Below, piece by piece: positions 9,973-23,435 of a DNA stretch of 34,167 nt. Source of the stretch: a virus; the IMG/VR virus record IMGVR_UViG_3300000116_000002, positions 1-34,167 of that record, one strand, 5' to 3'. The notes beneath the pieces are model-generated. The model had not been told where the DNA came from. It was given only the letters and a program-made list of their open reading frames with translations, and did not search any database. Numbering within the stretch: the stretch's first letter is position 1; every line of letters starts with the position of its first letter. A program made the translations under genes and the position numbers.

Positions 9973-10065
9973 ATCAATGTCTCCCTTTGCGTTTGCAGTT
10001 AAATGGCTTGCTACCCGCCGGAATGACGGACAAAGGTTTTTGCAGTACGGATGCGCCGACCGGGG

Positions 10066-10257
10066 CTATGCAGCTTGTCCGGGTTTTTGCTTTGGTGCCT
10101 TGGCTGACTGGGCGCTAGGCTTGTCAATCGGCGTGAGGCACCACTGCAAATTCTTTTCTGCCTGTTCCAATGGGTTCTGGATCACAGCGTGTGTGCCGGC
10201 TTCCATTGTCAGGCGTAATACTTCTAGCCGGAACTCTCTATCCTCATGCTCCGACAT
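10066..10257 (-). CDS. Hypothetical small protein, 63 aa
   Basis: ORF between the scaffold and capsid genes. Its start overlaps the end of the scaffold gene by 14 nt. Confidence 0.45.
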   Translation of the reverse strand: MSEHEDREFRLEVLRLTMEAGTHAVIQNPLEQAEKNLQWCLTPIDKPSAQSAKAPKQKPGQAA

Positions 10258-13204: not shown

Positions 13205-13428
13205 TATTTGCCTCCAAGTAGTGATTTATATTCGACCGGCGCCTCGGTGGTAACACCCTGCGGCCCTGTCTTCTGGCTGGTTTTCATTGTCGCCTTGCCC
13301 GTTTGCTTTTTCTTGGTCTTTTCAGTCTCGGTGCCGGGCGCATCCACAACAGGATCAGGGGCTGGCGGCGGTGGCGGCGGCGCTGGTGGCGGCGGCGGTA
13401 TATTTACCTTTGGTGTCAAAAAACTCAT
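13204..13428 (-). CDS. Small protein with a poly-proline tract and C-terminal ...YKSLLGGK, 74 aa
   Basis: The ATG at 13428 forms an ATGA overlap with the terL stop. The longer listed start at 13488 lies inside terL. The sequence is MSFLTPKVNIPPPPPAPPPPPPAP... Confidence 0.6.
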   Translation of the reverse strand: MSFLTPKVNIPPPPPAPPPPPPAPDPVVDAPGTETEKTKKKQTGKATMKTSQKTGPQGVTTEAPVEYKSLLGGK

Positions 13429-14705
13429 GCGACCACTCCTAACGGGTTGTACGCGCTGTCTGCGATTTTTTGGGGCGGCCTCTCCCACGCTTGGTTTTCT
13501 TTGATACCGACGGCGAGGTATCTGAAAGCGTCGGCGGCGTGGCTCGACCAGTCGTGGACGGGCGTGGATCTAAAACTTCTAAGACGCTCGTTATACGCCC
13601 TATGATAGTGCCTAAGAGCTTCCAAGCCCGGCCCACAAGCGGTTTTGTCAAACCAGCAGCGTGGAATAAGCATCTGTGCAGCATGGATTCCATCCTCTAA
13701 TGGTAGTTTGGGTACGACCCGAAAGTTAATCCCCAGATCCCAGGCGACCTCTCGCCGGCTTTTACCAGACCCCAGCTCTCTTACCTCGATGTCATGCGGG
13801 GCATTGTGTGTGCCGTAAAGGTAATCTTTTTCTTGAAGCATCCGGGCATAGTGCGGCAAGCCCTCGCCACGGTTTTCATAAAAATCGATAACGTGAACAG
13901 CCCTGCCCACGCTTTGCGTAAACCAGACCACAGTGCTATCGCCGACGCCCAGATCCCACCAGGTATCCACCTTTGCACTTGGATCATAGGGAACTGAAGA
14001 GATGCGCCCTGTTTCTTGAGCGGCTTGCAGCTCTTTTCCAAAAACAGCCCCCGGCACATTAGCCACCCAGCTGCACTCAAACTCTTGCTCAAACTGATCT
14101 GCCGACATCATAGACCGGGCAGCGTCCAGCTCTTCAGCATCCAGGATGCCAGTCTCGCTGGCCTTGTGAATTGCCGTGTACCAGTCGTCCTGGCTTTCGG
14201 CCGCCACAAACAATTCATAAAATGCGTTGTGGCCTCTAGGCGTACCGATAAACAGCGCCTTGCCTTTCCTGTCGCTCAGCGCCGGCCTGATAATCTCAGG
14301 AAACAAACTCTCAGGCATATCTGCCATTTCATCGAGACACGCCATGTCCAGATAAATACCACGCAAGCTATCCGGGTTCTCAGCGCCCAAGAGCTGTATC
14401 CTTGCGCCATTAGGCAAATCACACCTAAGCTCAGTCTCATGAAACCTGGTCATAGGTATCTTGCCGGCGAACTGCTTCAAGTAATCCCATGCCACCGCCT
14501 TAGCTTGCCTGTAGGTGGGCGCTATGTAAGCACAGCGCGGATTGGTATTGGGATTAAGCACAGCCTCTCTCAGCAAGTGATTTATCGCCATGACGGTCTT
14601 GCCAGCACGTCGGTGCAGGACAACGACGCCCCAGCGCTTGGCGCTTAGCTCAGCGTGGAGCTGCGCTTGCAATGGCCGTGGTGTATAGGGGATCTCAATG
14701 TTCAT
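13425..14705 (-). CDS. terL: Terminase large subunit, 426 aa
   Basis: Walker A-like LHRRAGKT and Walker B-like LDEMADM motifs are present, followed by a C-terminal nuclease-type region. It lies upstream of the portal gene. Confidence 0.9.
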   Translation of the reverse strand: MNIEIPYTPRPLQAQLHAELSAKRWGVVVLHRRAGKTVMAINHLLREAVLNPNTNPRCAYIAPTYRQAKAVAWDYLKQFAGKIPMTRFHETELRCDLPNGARIQLLGAENPDSLRGIYLDMACLDEMADMPESLFPEIIRPALSDRKGKALFIGTPRGHNAFYELFVAAESQDDWYTAIHKASETGILDAEELDAARSMMSADQFEQEFECSWVANVPGAVFGKELQAAQETGRISSVPYDPSAKVDTWWDLGVGDSTVVWFTQSVGRAVHVIDFYENRGEGLPHYARMLQEKDYLYGTHNAPHDIEVRELGSGKSRREVAWDLGINFRVVPKLPLEDGIHAAQMLIPRCWFDKTACGPGLEALRHYHRAYNERLRSFRSTPVHDWSSHAADAFRYLAVGIKENQAWERPPQKIADSAYNPLGVVA

Positions 14706-14856
14706 GTCAGAGACAGGCTCATGATAGGTTATTATACGCTATAGATTCGGCGGGTTAGTCCGGGGGTGGTGGGGGGGTCGCTTTTGCAAATCCCCACATA
14801 AAACAGGTACGCATCCCGTCACTCTCATAAGCATATCAACGGTTTCAGCCAGCCGA

Positions 14857-14875
14857 GTGCCAAGCCAGTGCCAAG
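14857..14875 (-). repeat. Tandem 11-bp-phased CTTGGCAC pair (third cluster, in the terS-terL spacer)
   Basis: The minus strand reads CTTGGCACTGGCTTGGCAC. This is almost identical to 23393-23410 in the attP region. Confidence 0.8.
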
Positions 14876-14967
14876 ATCATTCCCAGCCAGACATCAATCA
14901 AAGAAAAACAAAACTTGGGTATGCCTCGTGCGCGCGAGCCCTGACACAGACAGCTTGTTATATATAT

Positions 14968-15420
14968 CTACCCAACCACTTCAGCTTCAGCATTGCCCCA
15001 CACCAAAGTCAATGTCCCGCCCTGCTGCTGCTTGTCATCTGCCTTATCTCTGATACCCAATGGCTGCATCTGCCTGATGTGCTTATCCTTGTGATCAGCC
15101 TCTAACCTTCTACGCTGCACCTCAGCCATGGCCAGCTTGGGATCGTCAGGCAATGGCGCTTCAACAAGATCAATGATTTGATCACGCATGACCTCACACT
15201 GCAAAGCCCTGGCTGTCCTGTATGCTGTGTAAGCCTCTTCATCTTCTTGAACGTGACGCAATACTGTACGCCATGAAGGCAAGCTGTCATCTTCATTGCA
15301 GATCCTGGTCAGACTAATCCCGTCTGCAATCCGCTCGCAGATCGTTGTCATCTGTGTTTTTGTGATGCGTCGTTTAGCCATTGCCATCCAAAAGAACTGA
15401 CCCAGCCATAGGCATGTCAT
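14968..15420 (-). CDS. terS: Terminase small subunit (HTH-type), up to 150 aa; true start uncertain (possibly MAMAKRR or MAKRR)
   Basis: The pattern ICERIADGISLTRICNEDDSLPSWRTVLRHV..DEEAYTAYRTARALQ is typical of phage small terminases. It lies upstream of terL. Confidence 0.75.
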   Translation of the reverse strand: MTCLWLGQFFWMAMAKRRITKTQMTTICERIADGISLTRICNEDDSLPSWRTVLRHVQEDEEAYTAYRTARALQCEVMRDQIIDLVEAPLPDDPKLAMAEVQRRRLEADHKDKHIRQMQPLGIRDKADDKQQQGGTLTLVWGNAEAEVVG

Positions 15421-15503
15421 GGCTGAGCCAGCTTGTAAGGTTCAAGTTAAGGGAGGATTTACGCAACATATAGTGCAGCGTATAAGAATCTGTACTACTT
15501 TTA

Positions 15504-15520
15504 GATCATTCGCGTCAAGT
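15504..15520 (-). promoter_or_regulatory. ACTTGACG-type promoter/operator-like element upstream of terS
   Basis: The minus strand reads ACTTGACGCGAATGATC. It shares ACTTGACG..AAT with three other intergenic elements. A related TCCCTTAACTTGAAC lies about 70 bp downstream. Confidence 0.35.
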
Positions 15521-15536
15521 GCTTTGACCAATTATG

Positions 15537-18447: not shown

Positions 18448-19125
18448 ATGATCTTCATGTCAAACAACCTGTCAGTAATGATTGCCCGGTCGGGCTTGAA
18501 TAAAAAAGATGTTGGCGCTGCTATCGGTGTGGCGCCCGAAACCGTGTCGCGTCATATGTCTGGCAACATTCAGATCAATCTTAAACTAGCAGAGGAATAT
18601 GCCAAGGTGCTAAACTGTATGCCCCAGGACATACTGTTCGCCACCAAGCCTCTCAAAATACTGATGCACAATCATGTTCATGACAATGGTGAAATATCGC
18701 GTGCGCTTGCCGGTGAAACATGTCCACGCACAAAAGGTCGTGCCAAAAGCGGTAAAATCTATATGAACCATATGTTTCAAGACAAGCTAAGCGCTATTGT
18801 ATGGACTATGGATAAAAATTATACCGGCATAAAAGAATCGCTCCGGGAAGCAATCAGCATTGTGCGTTCTGACCCTGTGCAACAAAAATATGTTGATGAA
18901 GCGTGTGACAAACGCCCTTGCTATTTTCTTTCAAAAAACAGCAAAGACCAAAGCGCAGATATTGGCTATGGCGTCATTTATCCTGAGCCGGGAAACTTAT
19001 TTACAGTCGTTGATTGTAACACTGGCGACATTCGCAGAGGCTTAGAATTGATCTGGGCTACACCGCATATTTCAACAGTGTGGCGGCCTGATCTGCGTGA
19101 TATAAATATAGTCTACGACAAGTGA
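18448..19125 (+). CDS. CI-like repressor: N-terminal XRE-family HTH plus an unrecognised, non-S24 C-terminal domain, 225 aa
   Basis: HTH segment LNKKDVGAAIGVAPETVSRHMSG. An AAGGTGA Shine-Dalgarno is present and the gene is divergent from the Cro-like gene. I saw no Ser/Lys peptidase G-[DS]-SM motif. Confidence 0.7.
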   Translation: MIFMSNNLSVMIARSGLNKKDVGAAIGVAPETVSRHMSGNIQINLKLAEEYAKVLNCMPQDILFATKPLKILMHNHVHDNGEISRALAGETCPRTKGRAKSGKIYMNHMFQDKLSAIVWTMDKNYTGIKESLREAISIVRSDPVQQKYVDEACDKRPCYFLSKNSKDQSADIGYGVIYPEPGNLFTVVDCNTGDIRRGLELIWATPHISTVWRPDLRDINIVYDK

Positions 19126-21971: not shown

Positions 21972-23096
21972 TTAGAACGCTTCTGCTATTCCGTCAGCAA
22001 TCTTGTCGTCGCGCTCTTTATCGTCAAGCCAATGGCCGTAAACATCGCTTGTTGTACTGATGCTAGCGTGGCCCATCAGGTTAGTTATTGTCCACCAGTC
22101 AGCTCCAAACTTTTGCAGCAAACGGCTGGCATAGTAGTGGCGCAGATCGTGCCACCTGATGCGTCCAACGCCAGCTTGCTCACACGCCTTACCCAGCACT
22201 TTAGCAAATACATTTGTGCCGAGCGGGTCACCGAATCTGCCGGTAAAGACTAGCGCGTCATCAGCTGGTCTGCCCAGTAACAAATACAGCTCTTGTAAAG
22301 ATTGTTTTACATCTGGGTGCAGTGGCACCTTGCGCTTACCCCGCTTGGTTTTTGGATCGCCGATCTCACTGCTGTTATGCTTGACTGCCTTGTTGACGTG
22401 AACATAGCCAGGCTTGCCCCAGTCAATGTCAGACCAAGTTAGCGCGCGAAGCTCGCCCTGACGCAGACCAGTAGTTGCAGAAAACCTAGCGCGCAAAGCC
22501 CAGTGAACAGGCATTGCATCAATGATTGCGTTGATCACGTCAGGCTGTATCTGCTTGATCTCTTTTGCCGGCTTTGCTTTGTCGCCCTTGCCTTTTACAT
22601 CAGTCATTGGATTGCTGTTGCGGCAACCAGAATCAATAGAGTAGCTCATAAAGTATCTGAGCGAACCGAGGATATTATCGACAGTCTTTTTAGCCCGACC
22701 GACCCGCAGTTGCTCAACAATCTGCAACCGCATATGCCCGGTTGTAAGATCACGCACCTTGCTTTGCCCGACAGGTTTACCGTCAAGAGTAAGACCGACA
22801 AACAATTTGGCATCGCGCTCTTTTTCTGACTTTGATGACGTGGTCATGTCACCCTTGTCATGCTGGCTTGTTATGTGGGTTATGAAATTGCTGTACAACA
22901 TATCAAAGTCCCAATCCCATGCAGCTGCTGTGCTTGGTGTCAGCTCTGCCTTGATCTTATCGACGTGACGCTCAGCCTCTAGCTTTGTGTGAAAGAACTC
23001 GCGCTTGCCGTTAGCAACAATAGACCTGGTGTCTACGCAAAATGCAGCCCATCCTTTTTTTACGCGTGACTTGTGTTCTACAATTTTGATGTCCAT
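21972..23096 (-). CDS. int: Tyrosine recombinase (phage integrase), 374 aa
   Basis: Catalytic-domain motifs TGLRQGEL, HDLRHYYAS and LMGHASISTTSDVYGHW are present. An AGGAG Shine-Dalgarno precedes the start and the gene is adjacent to a tRNA fragment. Confidence 0.92.
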   Translation of the reverse strand: MDIKIVEHKSRVKKGWAAFCVDTRSIVANGKREFFHTKLEAERHVDKIKAELTPSTAAAWDWDFDMLYSNFITHITSQHDKGDMTTSSKSEKERDAKLFVGLTLDGKPVGQSKVRDLTTGHMRLQIVEQLRVGRAKKTVDNILGSLRYFMSYSIDSGCRNSNPMTDVKGKGDKAKPAKEIKQIQPDVINAIIDAMPVHWALRARFSATTGLRQGELRALTWSDIDWGKPGYVHVNKAVKHNSSEIGDPKTKRGKRKVPLHPDVKQSLQELYLLLGRPADDALVFTGRFGDPLGTNVFAKVLGKACEQAGVGRIRWHDLRHYYASRLLQKFGADWWTITNLMGHASISTTSDVYGHWLDDKERDDKIADGIAEAF

Positions 23097-23156: not shown

Positions 23157-23194
23157 GGGATAATCCCGTTACTCTCGCGACTTATCATGTCTTT

Positions 23195-23216
23195 CTTGGC
23201 ACGCGCTTGGCACGCG
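23195..23216 (+). repeat. Perfect tandem 2 x 11 bp CTTGGCACGCG (candidate integrase arm-type sites, P arm)
   Basis: Read directly. It lies about 60-80 bp from the tRNA-derived core. Confidence 0.75.
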
Positions 23217-23218
23217 GA

Positions 23219-23259
23219 CAAAAAAATAAGCCACCGAAAGCTAATGCTTTCAGTGGCTT
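23219..23259 (-). terminator. Rho-independent terminator downstream of the tRNA 3' fragment
   Basis: A 14-bp stem with one mismatch (AAGCCACTGAAAGC-ATTA-GCTTTCGGTGGCTT) is followed by TATTTTTTTG on the minus strand. Confidence 0.75.
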
Positions 23260-23273
23260 AACACCGTAAAGAA

Positions 23274-23301
23274 TGGTGAGCGCGACAGGATTCGAACCTG
23301 C
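23274..23301 (-). other. attP core: 3'-terminal fragment of a tRNA gene (T-arm, acceptor 3' strand, discriminator A, CCA)
   Basis: The minus strand reads GCAGG-TTCGAAT-CCTGT-CGCGCTC-A-CCA. No matching 5' acceptor strand, D-arm or canonical anticodon loop lies upstream, so it is not a complete tRNA. Confidence 0.75.
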
Positions 23302-23391: not shown

Positions 23392-23435
23392 TCTGGCACT
23401 GGCTTGGCACGGGCGCGTGCCAAAGCTCTTGGCAC
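23392..23435 (+). repeat. Cluster of CTTGGCAC-type repeats (candidate arm-type sites, P' arm)
   Basis: The cluster holds TCTGGCACTGG and CTTGGCACGGG in 11-bp phase, an inverted GTGCCAA that forms TTGGCAC-N6-GTGCCAA, and a further CTTGGCAC at 23428. Confidence 0.75.

What the first reader, a model, noticed from the sequence alone, without database searches (positions are those of the whole stretch)
14706..14967. Unusually long terS-terL spacer containing a third copy of the attP arm-type repeat pair
terS and terL are separated by 262 bp of apparently non-coding DNA, while nearly every other gene pair in this operon overlaps or abuts.

On the minus strand, 14857-14875 reads CTTGGCACTGGCTTGGCAC. 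This is an 11-bp-phased tandem that matches 23393-23410 beside attP (CTGGCACTGGCTTGGCAC) at 18 of 19 positions. Single TTGGCAC heptamers occur elsewhere at about chance frequency. Phased pairs occur only at these three loci.

If the attP clusters are integrase arm-type sites, Int or whichever protein binds them may also bind upstream of terL. That would suggest coupling between the integration/excision machinery and packaging-gene expression, or a role in terminase site recognition.

The spacer also holds a perfect TATAAT on the minus strand (14731-14736), 25 nt upstream of the terL ATG.
Basis: partly seen in the sequence, partly recalled or inferred. Interest (0 to 1): 0.64.

Follow-up and report, generated by a model that had tools for sequence, protein, structure and literature searches.

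The report
Integrase docking site upstream of terL
A pair of integrase "arm" docking sites, followed by a look-alike of the crossover core, sits in a conserved non-coding cassette just before this marine phage's DNA-packaging motor gene and changes in step with the integrase in related phages, so the integration enzyme very probably also acts at the packaging genes.

Summary
terS and terL are separated by 262 non-coding bases. On the minus strand, 14857-14875 carries an exact 11-nt-phased TTGGCAC pair, otherwise found only in the two arms of attP.

Comparative evidence shows it is a functional site:
- 43 of 64 relatives have an exact 11-nt-phased pair about 170 nt before the downstream start codon, and the motif differs by lineage.
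- In all 22 genomes holding both regions (9 motif classes), the spacer motif equals the motif clustered beside int.
- Near-identical phages (TerS and TerL 100% identical) differ only by a ~27-nt patch that swaps the pair.
- Motif class tracks two residues of the integrase N-terminal beta-sheet domain, not CI, TerS or TerL.
- Relatives lacking int and cI carry a different module there.

A second element 30 nt downstream, a 5-7-5 inverted repeat resembling a tRNA T-arm, shares a lineage-specific 11-15-mer with a site next to the int promoter region. The spacer therefore looks like a compact pseudo-att site.

What integrase does there is inferred. My best guess is control of terL and late-gene expression. 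The main rival is a lox-like recombination site. The scan has not noted this on other DNA.

The parts
14706..14967 (-). Conserved ~255-nt non-coding cassette in front of terL. In order it holds palindrome a, a T-rich stretch or hairpin, the phased pair, GCTGTRAYC, inverted repeat c, a C-rich box, a TATA box and the leader.
   Evidence: Present in all 64 relatives that hold terS and terL. It stays intact when an extra gene is inserted between terS and the cassette (L004, L040) or between the leader and terL (L042-44, L052).
14857..14875 (-). 11-nt-phased pair CTTGGCACTGGCTTGGCAC. I read it as an Int arm-type doubled site outside attP.
   Evidence: Exact match. A phased pair sits at -166..-175 from the downstream ATG in 43 of 64 relatives, with a lineage-specific motif. 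The motif equals the attP arm motif in 22 of 22 genomes holding both regions.
14803..14827 (-). Module c, TGAGAGTG-ACGGG-ATGCGTA-CCTGT. It is a 5-bp inverted repeat around 7 nt with T-arm-like geometry, and a candidate core-type (C-O-C') site.
   Evidence: It is the only consensus hairpin found by RNAalifold, with compensatory changes. It matches the attP tRNA core 23276-23299 at 18 of 24 positions in the same orientation relative to the pair. Its 5' half GAGAGTGACGGGAT recurs at 23163-23176 (13/14; 0 expected).
14921..14946 (-). Module a, TGTCAGGG-CTCGCGCGCACGAG-GCAT. It is a near-perfect 14-bp palindrome conserved in temperate and lytic relatives alike.
   Evidence: Alignments. Function unknown; it is not tied to int.
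14762..14778 (-). C-rich box ACCCCCCCACCACCCCC, conserved in sequence across all lineages.
   Evidence: Alignments. Function unknown.
14731..14736 (-). TATAAT-like AT-rich box 25 nt before the terL ATG.
   Evidence: An AT-rich TATA-type box is conserved at this position, but there is no -35 partner and the promoter scan did not call it.
13425..14705 (-). terL (large terminase).
   Evidence: Pfam Terminase_6N, TerL_ATPase and Terminase_6C. 58% identical to TerL of HTVC010P-type pelagiphages.
14968..15420 (-). terS (small terminase, Sf6-like).
   Evidence: Pfam Sf6_terminase, E 1e-20.
23196..23213 (+). attP P-arm doubled arm-type site, on the int-proximal side.
23393..23435 (+). attP P'-arm cluster: two direct copies, one inverted copy, then one direct copy.
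   Evidence: The same architecture is found in G002, G003, G004, G006 and G009.
23274..23301 (-). attP core: the 3' fragment of a tRNA (T-arm, acceptor strand, CCA), followed by a terminator at 23227-23260.
   Evidence: ARAGORN finds no whole tRNA.
23158..23176 (-). Element ii, GAGAGTAACGGGATTATCCC, lying between the P-arm pair and a TTGACG -35-like box upstream of int. It is the partner of module c.
   Evidence: The own-genome match is better than any cross-genome match in 6 of 7 genomes.
21972..23096 (-). Tyrosine integrase with an extra N-terminal beta-beta-beta-alpha domain. W16 and R32 are the candidate specificity residues.
   Evidence: Pfam Phage_integrase. AF2 model of the N-terminal 80 residues. 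Foldseek matches to XerA, Tn1549 Int and full-length lambda Int. Residue-to-motif correlation.

Best explanation
The 14857-14875 pair is a genuine, selected binding site for the phage integrase's N-terminal (arm-binding) domain, placed outside attP.

Together with the T-arm-like inverted repeat 30 nt downstream (14803-14827), it forms a compact att-like module: a doubled arm site plus a core-type look-alike. This module is plugged into a conserved regulatory cassette in front of terL. The same two elements, in the same order relative to the downstream gene, lie just upstream of the promoter-like region of int.

Shown by comparison:
- The same specificity determinant reads the spacer pair and the attP arms.
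- That determinant follows Int N-terminal residues, not TerS, TerL or CI.
- The module exists only in phages that carry int and cI.

Inferred: Int assembles on the cassette, possibly with a partner that reads module c. From there it modulates transcription passing from terS into terL and the structural operon, most plausibly by repression or roadblock. The nuclease/motor TerL and virion genes would then be held down while Int is abundant, that is, during establishment or maintenance of lysogeny and before excision. This extends the way IntS and TorI act at the KplE1 int promoter.
For: Conservation of the pair:
- Position and 11-nt phase are conserved in 43 of 64 relatives, while the motif differs by lineage.
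- Within the TTGGCACt class, the heptamers are invariant while the flanks and the 4-nt linker vary.

Co-variation with attP:
- The spacer motif equals the attP arm motif in 22 of 22 genomes. This covers 9 classes: TTGGCACt/a/c, TGTGACC, TGTGATGc, TTGGCATGCG, cAGTGACC, AGGCGCC and GCGACC.

Natural swaps:
- L049 and L050 have TerS 135/135 and TerL 426/426 identical. Their spacers are identical except for a ~27-nt patch that exchanges the pair.
- L015/L017 and L035/L036 show the same thing.

Which protein:
- Int residue 16 tracks the 3' end of the motif: K or R with ..CC, W with ..(C/T)(T/G), H with ..CA.
- Int residue 32 tracks the motif core: R with GGC, Q with G(T/C)GA.
- This holds across several Int backbones. 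L035 vs L040 and G003 vs G004 differ almost only in this N-terminal part.
- The two residues sit at the starts of strands 2 and 3 of a predicted beta-beta-beta-alpha domain.
- CI does not track the motif.

Link to lysogeny:
- The int-less, cI-less relatives G001, G010, G005 and G011 lack the pair and carry another module there.

Second shared element:
- Module c and element ii match in 6 of 7 genomes, and each matches its own genome better than any other.
- Element ii abuts a -35-like TTGACG/TTGACA box upstream of int.

Precedent: IntS arm-type and core-type sites plus TorI sites overlap and repress PintS (PMC2951348).
Against: - No binding, transcript or reporter data exist.
- The promoter scan found no promoter next to the pair or module c. 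The TATA box is about 115 nt downstream of the pair and lacks a -35. The scan also called no promoter upstream of int.
- A complete 5-7-5 inverted repeat is more than a simple operator needs.
- The pair-to-ATG distance varies by about 9 nt, so strict helical phasing with a promoter is unlikely.
- Int N-terminus and attP arms are physically linked, so part of their correlation could be hitch-hiking of a cassette.
- Foldseek with the N-domain model alone gave no significant match to lambda Int or Tn916 Int.
- A more distant int+ clade (G014, L060, L074-L080) keeps only one arm-like copy in the spacer.
Confidence: 0.45

Rival explanations
1. The cassette is a lox-like second recombination site. 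Int recombines two copies of the pseudo-att with each other. Each copy supplies two arm sites and one C-O-C' core, which is exactly what an Int tetramer needs. This would circularise terminally redundant injected DNA or resolve multimers, as Cre-lox does for P1. The overlap differs from the attP/attB overlap, so the site does not cross-react with them.
For: - The anatomy is fully att-like. A doubled arm site sits 30 nt from a 5-bp inverted repeat around 7 nt, in most lineages.
- In the window, both half-sites match the attP core 5 of 6 each. The 7-nt centre differs: ATGCGTA vs ATTCGAA.
- In G009 the match to its own core is 16 of 17, with one change in the centre.
- The site lies beside the packaging genes of a phage with an Sf6-type TerS and a T4-type TerL. 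The record assembles as a circle.
- From my own knowledge: lambda attL x attL recombination and P1 Cre-lox cyclisation are established.
Against: - Similarity of module c to its own core is significant in only 2 of 7 genomes.
- A c-like hairpin persists, with other geometry, in int-less relatives.
- Mosaic boundaries between relatives do not fall at module c.
- The phage has an Erf-type recombinase that could circularise the DNA.
- There is no evidence of where pac lies or how large the terminal redundancy is.
Confidence: 0.25
2. The repeats are read by another protein of the lysogeny/attP module, such as a recombination directionality factor or another small DNA-binding protein. That protein acts at both attP and the terL cassette, as P2 Cox or 186 Apl act at att and at promoters. 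Int is not the reader.
For: - Phased direct repeats about one helical turn apart are typical of Cox/Apl/Xis-type sites (my own knowledge).
- The pair is present only in genomes with the lysogeny module.
- The authors of the HE-PICI 'doubled motif' leave open whether Int arm domains or AlpA bind it (PMC10111431).
Against: - The repeats flank the core on both sides, in the doubled-motif layout expected for four arm domains.
- Motif class follows Int N-terminal residues in otherwise near-identical integrases.
- No conserved small gene lies next to int. The 109-aa ORF is not conserved.
- CI is excluded.
Confidence: 0.08
3. The cassette is the packaging initiation region (pac or cos). The Int complex is an architectural helper for terminase recognition, as IHF is at lambda cosB.
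For: - This is the longest non-coding stretch of the late operon and lies between the terminase genes.
- It contains sequence-conserved boxes (palindrome a, the C-rich box) present in all lineages.
- One complete relative's contig (G009) is broken 12 nt after the terS stop.
Against: - Contig ends of other relatives do not share a position.
- The cassette keeps its place relative to the downstream start codon, not to terS, when genes are inserted.
- Lytic relatives package without the pair.
- Read termini could not be examined.
Confidence: 0.07
4. There is no dedicated function. The pair is a chance match, a decaying relic of an old duplication, a sigma-54-type promoter (TGGCAC-N5-TGGC), or the spacer is explained by a small gene or a structured RNA.
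For: - The window's motif matches GG-N10-GC spacing.
- A 31-aa ORF exists at 14739-14834.
- One small hairpin is conserved.
Against: - The other motif classes (TGTGACC, TGTGATG, GCGACC and others) have no GG/GC promoter pattern, yet keep position and phase.
- Precise patch swaps in identical backgrounds show selection for a match.
- ORF frames differ between lineages.
- There is no Rfam match, and only 5 consensus base pairs are predicted across 262 nt.
Confidence: 0.03

Closest known systems
Arm-type sites of heterobivalent tyrosine integrases (lambda Int P1/P2, P'1-P'3), and the 'doubled motif' of HE-PICI attP sites (PMC10111431)
   Same: Short direct repeats, distinct from the core, lie on both sides of a tRNA-derived crossover core as co-oriented tandem pairs. 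They are read by an extra N-terminal domain of the integrase.
   Different: Here a third doubled site lies 8.3 kb from attP in the terS-terL spacer. It is conserved in position and co-evolves with the attP arms. I found no such extra-att arm site in the papers I searched.
KplE1/HK620 intS promoter controlled by IntS (arm- and core-type sites) and the RDF TorI (PMC2951348)
   Same: int is read from its own promoter inside the att arm. Integrase and accessory sites sit around the -35/-10 region and repress transcription. The window's P arm has the same layout: pair, element ii, then a TTGACG box.
   Different: In KplE1 the regulated gene is int itself. Here the same pair of elements is duplicated in front of terL, and no promoter overlap is evident there.
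P1 Cre-loxP used for cyclisation of terminally redundant DNA and dimer resolution (my own knowledge; no paper fetched)
   Same: A phage-borne recombinase site separate from any chromosomal integration function, placed so that it could fall in the terminal redundancy.
   Different: loxP is a simple 13-8-13 site with no arms, and Cre has no arm domain. Here the site would be served by the integration enzyme itself. Recombination at it is unproven.
Dual-function excision proteins P2 Cox and 186 Apl (my own knowledge), and ICE RdfS (PMC11963761, listed but not read)
   Same: Proteins of the recombination machinery also bind phased repeats at promoters, coupling excision to gene expression.
   Different: Those are directionality factors acting at the lysis-lysogeny switch or at transfer genes. 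Here the evidence points to the integrase N-domain and to the packaging genes.

Membership tests
Integrase arm-type binding site (lambda Int paradigm) | A repeated short motif, different from the core, clustered on both arms of attP. | tested here: met
   The P pair is at 23196-23213 and the P' cluster at 23393-23435, flanking the tRNA-fragment core. The same layout is found in 6 other genomes.
Integrase arm-type binding site (lambda Int paradigm) | The motif specificity follows the integrase N-terminal domain. | tested here: met
   Residues 16 and 32 co-vary with motif class in about 24 integrases. Near-identical integrases that differ at these residues have different motifs. CI, TerS and TerL do not track the motif.
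Integrase arm-type binding site (lambda Int paradigm) | The integrase carries a separate N-terminal three-stranded-sheet-plus-helix DNA-binding domain. | tested here: inconclusive
   - The AF2 model (pLDDT 77) gives strands 5-9, 17-22 and 32-35 and a helix 38-52.
- Foldseek with this domain alone finds nothing significant.
- The full-length model aligns over 350-363 columns with full-length lambda Int 1z1g at E 1.7e-4.
- There is no Pfam Arm-DNA-bind hit.
Integrase arm-type binding site (lambda Int paradigm) | Physical binding of the Int N-domain to the site. | not testable with these tools
   Needs EMSA or footprinting.
Tyrosine-recombinase core-type site (C-O-C') | Inverted half-sites flanking a 6-8 bp overlap. 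| tested here: met
   The window has ACGGG-ATGCGTA-CCTGT. A 5-7-5 geometry is seen in most lineages, with compensatory changes. L028 is an exception.
Tyrosine-recombinase core-type site (C-O-C') | The half-sites resemble those of the element's own attP core. | tested here: inconclusive
   The match is significant in G000 (18/24; 1 of 500 shuffles) and G009 (0 of 500) and marginal in G006. It is not significant in G002, G003, G004 and G014.
Tyrosine-recombinase core-type site (C-O-C') | Cleavage and strand exchange at the site. | not testable with these tools
   Needs an in vitro or two-site plasmid recombination assay.
Int/RDF-controlled promoter (KplE1 PintS type) | Recombination-protein sites overlap a mapped promoter. 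| tested here: inconclusive
   Upstream of int, element ii abuts a TTGACG/TTGACA box in several genomes, but the consensus scan calls no promoter there or in the spacer. There are no TSS data.
Sigma-54 promoter | Invariant GG-N10-GC with TGGCAC/TTGC elements, conserved in relatives. | tested here: not met
   Only the TTGGCAC classes fit the spacing. The TGTGACC, TGTGATG, GCGACC and other classes at the same position do not.
pac/cos packaging site | Virion DNA termini or terminase cuts map to the region. | not testable with these tools
Contig ends give no consistent position.
Known structured RNA (Rfam) | A match to a curated covariance model. | tested here: not met
   No match near any gathering score.

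The most novel reading that the evidence does not exclude
The cassette is a self-contained second recombination site for the phage's own lambda-type integrase. Two copies of the pseudo-att (2 arm sites plus 1 core each) would load one Int tetramer and recombine with each other. This would circularise terminally redundant DNA or resolve concatemers next to the packaging genes. The diverged 7-nt overlap would keep the site from reacting with attP or the host tRNA. A heterobivalent integrase would then be doing the job of Cre-lox in a widespread marine phage family.
Probability: 0.25. Interest if true: 0.85.

Novelty: new variant of a known kind. Interest (0 to 1): 0.7.

Why it matters
Integrase arm sites are normally thought of as parts of attP only. 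Here a doubled arm site plus a core look-alike is maintained 8 kb away, in front of the large terminase gene. It occurs across a large, globally sampled family of marine temperate podophages related to HTVC010P-type pelagiphages, and it is re-matched every time the integrase specificity changes.

That is strong genetic evidence that the integration enzyme has a second job at the packaging genes. The job could be a checkpoint tying lysogeny or excision to packaging, or a second recombination reaction.

The natural specificity swaps also give a small, directly testable recognition code for an arm-binding domain. Residues 16 and 32 line up against positions 3-5 and 7-9 of the heptamer. This could be useful for engineering orthogonal integrases.

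Tried and rejected
- **Sigma-54 promoter.** Rejected. The GG-N10-GC look is specific to one motif class.
- **TerS as reader of the repeats (pac boxes).** Rejected. Identical TerS occurs with different motifs.
- **CI repressor as reader.** Rejected. The same HTH occurs with different motifs, and the same motif occurs with CI only 45% identical.
- **Small gene in the spacer.** Rejected. ORFs are inconsistent, and the frame through the C-rich box differs between lineages.
- **Large structured RNA.** Only a 5-bp hairpin is supported, and there is no Rfam hit.
- **Physical genome ends in the spacer.** The ends of G009 abut exactly 12 nt after the terS stop, but other contig ends are scattered. No conclusion.
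- **Xis candidate downstream of int (109-aa ORF).** Not conserved, probably spurious.
- **Fold match of the N-domain to lambda or Tn916 Int.** Not obtained. The PDB sequence profile search and Pfam at E up to 10 were empty.
- **Prophage copies in cultured or species genomes, to name the host and define the crossover.** None were close. The only 70% relative is a phage contig binned into an archaeal MAG.
- **Literature search for extra-att arm sites near terminase genes.** Nothing found.

Full report
**What the window is.**
The window is a complete 34,167-bp IMG/VR virus record with terminal repeats. It is a small temperate podophage with these features:
- a T7-type portal, major head protein and tail genes, with no RNA or DNA polymerase;
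- a CI-like repressor at 18448-19125(+) facing a Cro-like gene;
- an Erf-type recombinase;
- a tyrosine integrase at 21972-23096(-).

Its closest cultured relatives are HTVC010P-type pelagiphages, with TerL 58% identical. Subgroup II of that group is known to carry int and integrate into tRNA genes (PMC8477408).

The lytic direction is the minus strand, in this order: early genes, terS (14968-15420), the spacer, terL (13425-14705), portal and the structural and lysis genes around to 24003, attP, then int.

**Check of the observation.**
- TTGGCAC-N4-TTGGCAC occurs at three places only: 14857-14874(-), 23196-23213(+) and 23393-23410(+, one mismatch). 0.53 matches are expected.
- Nine of the sixteen single heptamers lie outside these loci, which is about chance.
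A tRNA 3' fragment and its terminator on the minus strand are flanked by a pair on the int side. On the far side there is a cluster of two direct copies, one inverted and one direct.
- The only other long gap of the late operon holds a 63-aa ORF.

**The spacer is a conserved cassette.**
I fetched 80 relatives through TerL. In 64 of them terS and terL are both present, and a 220-290-nt non-coding stretch precedes terL.

The alignment shows these parts in order:
- a near-perfect palindrome (CTCGCGCGCACGAG);
- a T-rich stretch or a small hairpin;
- the phased pair;
- GCTGTRAYC;
- a 5-bp inverted repeat around 7 nt (module c);
- a C-rich box;
- a TATA-type box;
- a conserved leader.

Extra genes occur between terS and the cassette (L004, L040) or between the leader and terL (L042-44, L052). 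In both cases the cassette stays whole and stays attached to the downstream start codon.

**The pair is a selected binding site.**
- In 43 of 64 relatives an exact 7-mer is repeated at exactly 11 nt, starting 166-175 nt before the downstream ATG. The 7-mer differs by lineage.
- Within one motif class the heptamers are invariant, while the flanks and the 4-nt linker vary.
- In every genome where I could read both regions, the spacer motif is the motif clustered on both sides of the attP core beside int. That is 22 genomes, with TerL 70-100% identical to the window.
- These 22 genomes cover nine motif classes:
  - TTGGCACt, TTGGCACa and TTGGCACc
  - TGTGACC and TGTGATGc
  - TTGGCATGCG
  - cAGTGACC
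  - AGGCGCC
  - GCGACC
- L049 and L050 have identical TerS (135/135), identical TerL (426/426) and identical spacers, apart from a ~27-nt patch that replaces cAGTGACCgag x2 by TGTGATGcg x2. L015/L017 and L035/L036 behave alike.
- A site 8 kb from attP that is re-matched in this way is under selection to be read by the same factor as the attP arms.

**Which factor.**
- TerS and TerL are excluded by the swaps.
- CI is excluded. L035 (TGTGACC) and L038 (TTGGCACa) share the same helix-turn-helix. L038 and L040 share a motif with CI only 45% identical.
- The integrase N-terminus tracks the motif.
  - The residue after the invariant G15 is K or R when the motif ends in CC. It is W when the motif ends in (C/T)(T/G), and H when it ends in CA.
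  - Residue 32 is R with a GGC core (TTGGCA, AGGCGCC) and Q with G(T/C)GA.
- L035 vs L040 and G003 vs G004 are near-identical integrases that differ almost only in this N-terminal part, and they have different motifs.
- AF2 predicts strands 5-9, 17-22 and 32-35 followed by a helix at 38-52 (pLDDT 77). The two residues therefore sit at the starts of strands 2 and 3.
- From my own knowledge, this is the topology of the lambda and Tn916 Int arm-binding domains.
- Foldseek with the domain alone was not significant. The full-length model matches XerA, Tn1549 Int and full-length lambda Int.
- Caveat: the N-terminus and the attP arms are neighbours and may travel as one cassette. The residue-motif link is therefore co-adaptation or co-inheritance, not proof of contact.

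**Link to lysogeny.**
Four relatives have neither int nor cI, and all lack the pair:
- G001 (100% complete)
- G010 (100% complete)
- G005 (93% complete)
- G011 (88% complete)

At that position they carry a different ~100-nt module, (C)CATAAT.GAT.TTATGCGACA...ATGTCG, with its own compensatory hairpins. All pair-bearing genomes that are complete enough have both genes.

A more distant int+ clade (G014, L060, L074-L080) keeps only one arm-like copy: TGTCACt against arm TGTCACC.

**A second shared element.**
- Thirty nt downstream of the pair, module c (14803-14827) reads TGAGAGTG-ACGGG-ATGCGTA-CCTGT.
- Its 5' half, GAGAGTGACGGGAT, recurs as GAGAGTAACGGGAT at 23163-23176. That copy is on the same strand, between the P-arm pair and a TTGACG box upstream of int. 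None is expected by chance.
- The same holds in other genomes with quite different sequences: 15/15 in G006, 11/11 in G003 and G004, 12/13 in G009 and 14/15 in G014. The own-versus-other matrix has a clear diagonal in 6 of 7 genomes.
- Module c also has the 5-7-5 geometry of a tRNA T-arm, and compensatory changes keep the inverted repeat.
- It resembles the attP core in the same orientation relative to the pair: 18/24 in the window and 16/17 in G009.
- This similarity to its own core is significant in only two of seven genomes, and the window's copy is as close to another lineage's tRNA core.
- I therefore read module c as a probable core-type site, or the site of a partner protein. The spacer as a whole would be a compact pseudo-att. 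Its central 7 nt (ATGCGTA) differ from those of attP (ATTCGAA).

**What it does.**
This part is inference.

The P arm shows the same two elements in the same order before int, next to a -35-like box. That is the arrangement by which IntS and TorI repress PintS in KplE1 (PMC2951348). By extension, I take Int-dependent control of transcription into terL and the late operon as the most likely role (0.45).

Points against this reading:
- No promoter is evident next to the module.
- A full 5-7-5 repeat is more than an operator needs.

The main rival (0.25) is a lox-like reaction between two copies of the pseudo-att. Its stoichiometry fits one Int tetramer, and it lies beside the packaging genes.

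Lesser rivals are a different reader protein, a packaging-site helper, or no function. The last of these is contradicted by the co-variation.

**Limits.**
- The host is unknown, and no integrated copy was found in the species genomes.
- The literature searches found no description of an arm-type site maintained outside attP near terminase genes.
- The nearest published anatomy is the co-oriented 'doubled motif' of HE-PICI attP sites (PMC10111431).

Noticed in passing
Int residues 16 and 32 (window 23049-23051 and 23001-23003, minus strand) and homologues in L022-L157: An apparent two-residue recognition code for the arm-binding domain. At position 16, K or R goes with a motif ending ..CC, W with ..(C/T)(T/G), and H with ..CA. 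At position 32, R goes with a GGC core and Q with G(T/C)GA.
   Followed up: partly
L007, L008-L010, L014, L033, L034, L052, L066, L116: spacer between module a and module c: Int-less, cI-less (lytic) relatives replace the pair by a ~100-nt module with conserved hairpins. These are CATAA-loop-TTATG and a long-range CGACATT/AATGTCG stem that changes to CGACATC/GATGTCG in L007. This is possibly a structured RNA.
   Followed up: partly
window 15395-15536: The 116-nt gap before terS holds a TTGACG box like those upstream of int and in the cI/cro switch. It also holds a terminator-like 16-bp hairpin (15433-15395) overlapping the annotated terS start. The upstream gene is a DUF6362 protein with a C-terminal HTH-like tail, conserved in all relatives. 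It is a possible late-regulator set-up.
   Followed up: no
L004:327-626, L040:8827-9126 (between terS and the cassette): Some relatives carry an extra ~97-aa gene (MEERPSWLKRALDP...) inserted between terS and the cassette. Others (L042-44, L052) have a small Cys-rich ORF (MDIDLTRPVIYAADCAPCELCGEPVCPRC...) between the conserved leader and terL.
   Followed up: no
G009 (contig of L055), both ends: This complete 37,378-bp relative is linearised exactly 12 nt after the terS stop. The two ends abut without overlap or gap when compared with L054. This could be arbitrary or a physical end.
   Followed up: partly
L056 and L066, first 30 nt after terS: A different 11-nt-phased pair (GGTACA-N5-GGTACAGCG) sits right after terS in two lytic-type relatives. 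It is not clustered elsewhere in the complete genome G010.
   Followed up: partly
L116 (PAOW01000004.1): A 38-kb contig of this phage family (TerL 70% identical, lytic-type spacer) is binned in a MAG labelled Methanobacteriota archaeon. This is almost certainly a binning error.
   Followed up: no
window 14762-14778 and 14925-14938: The C-rich box ACCCCC.ACC.ACCCCC and the palindrome CTCGCGCGCACGAG are conserved in sequence across temperate and lytic relatives down to 78% TerL identity. They are likely sites of conserved phage or host factors of unknown identity.
   Followed up: no
window 9973-10243: The apparent 271-bp gap before the major head gene holds an unlisted 63-aa ORF (MSEHEDREFRLEVLRL...).
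   Followed up: no
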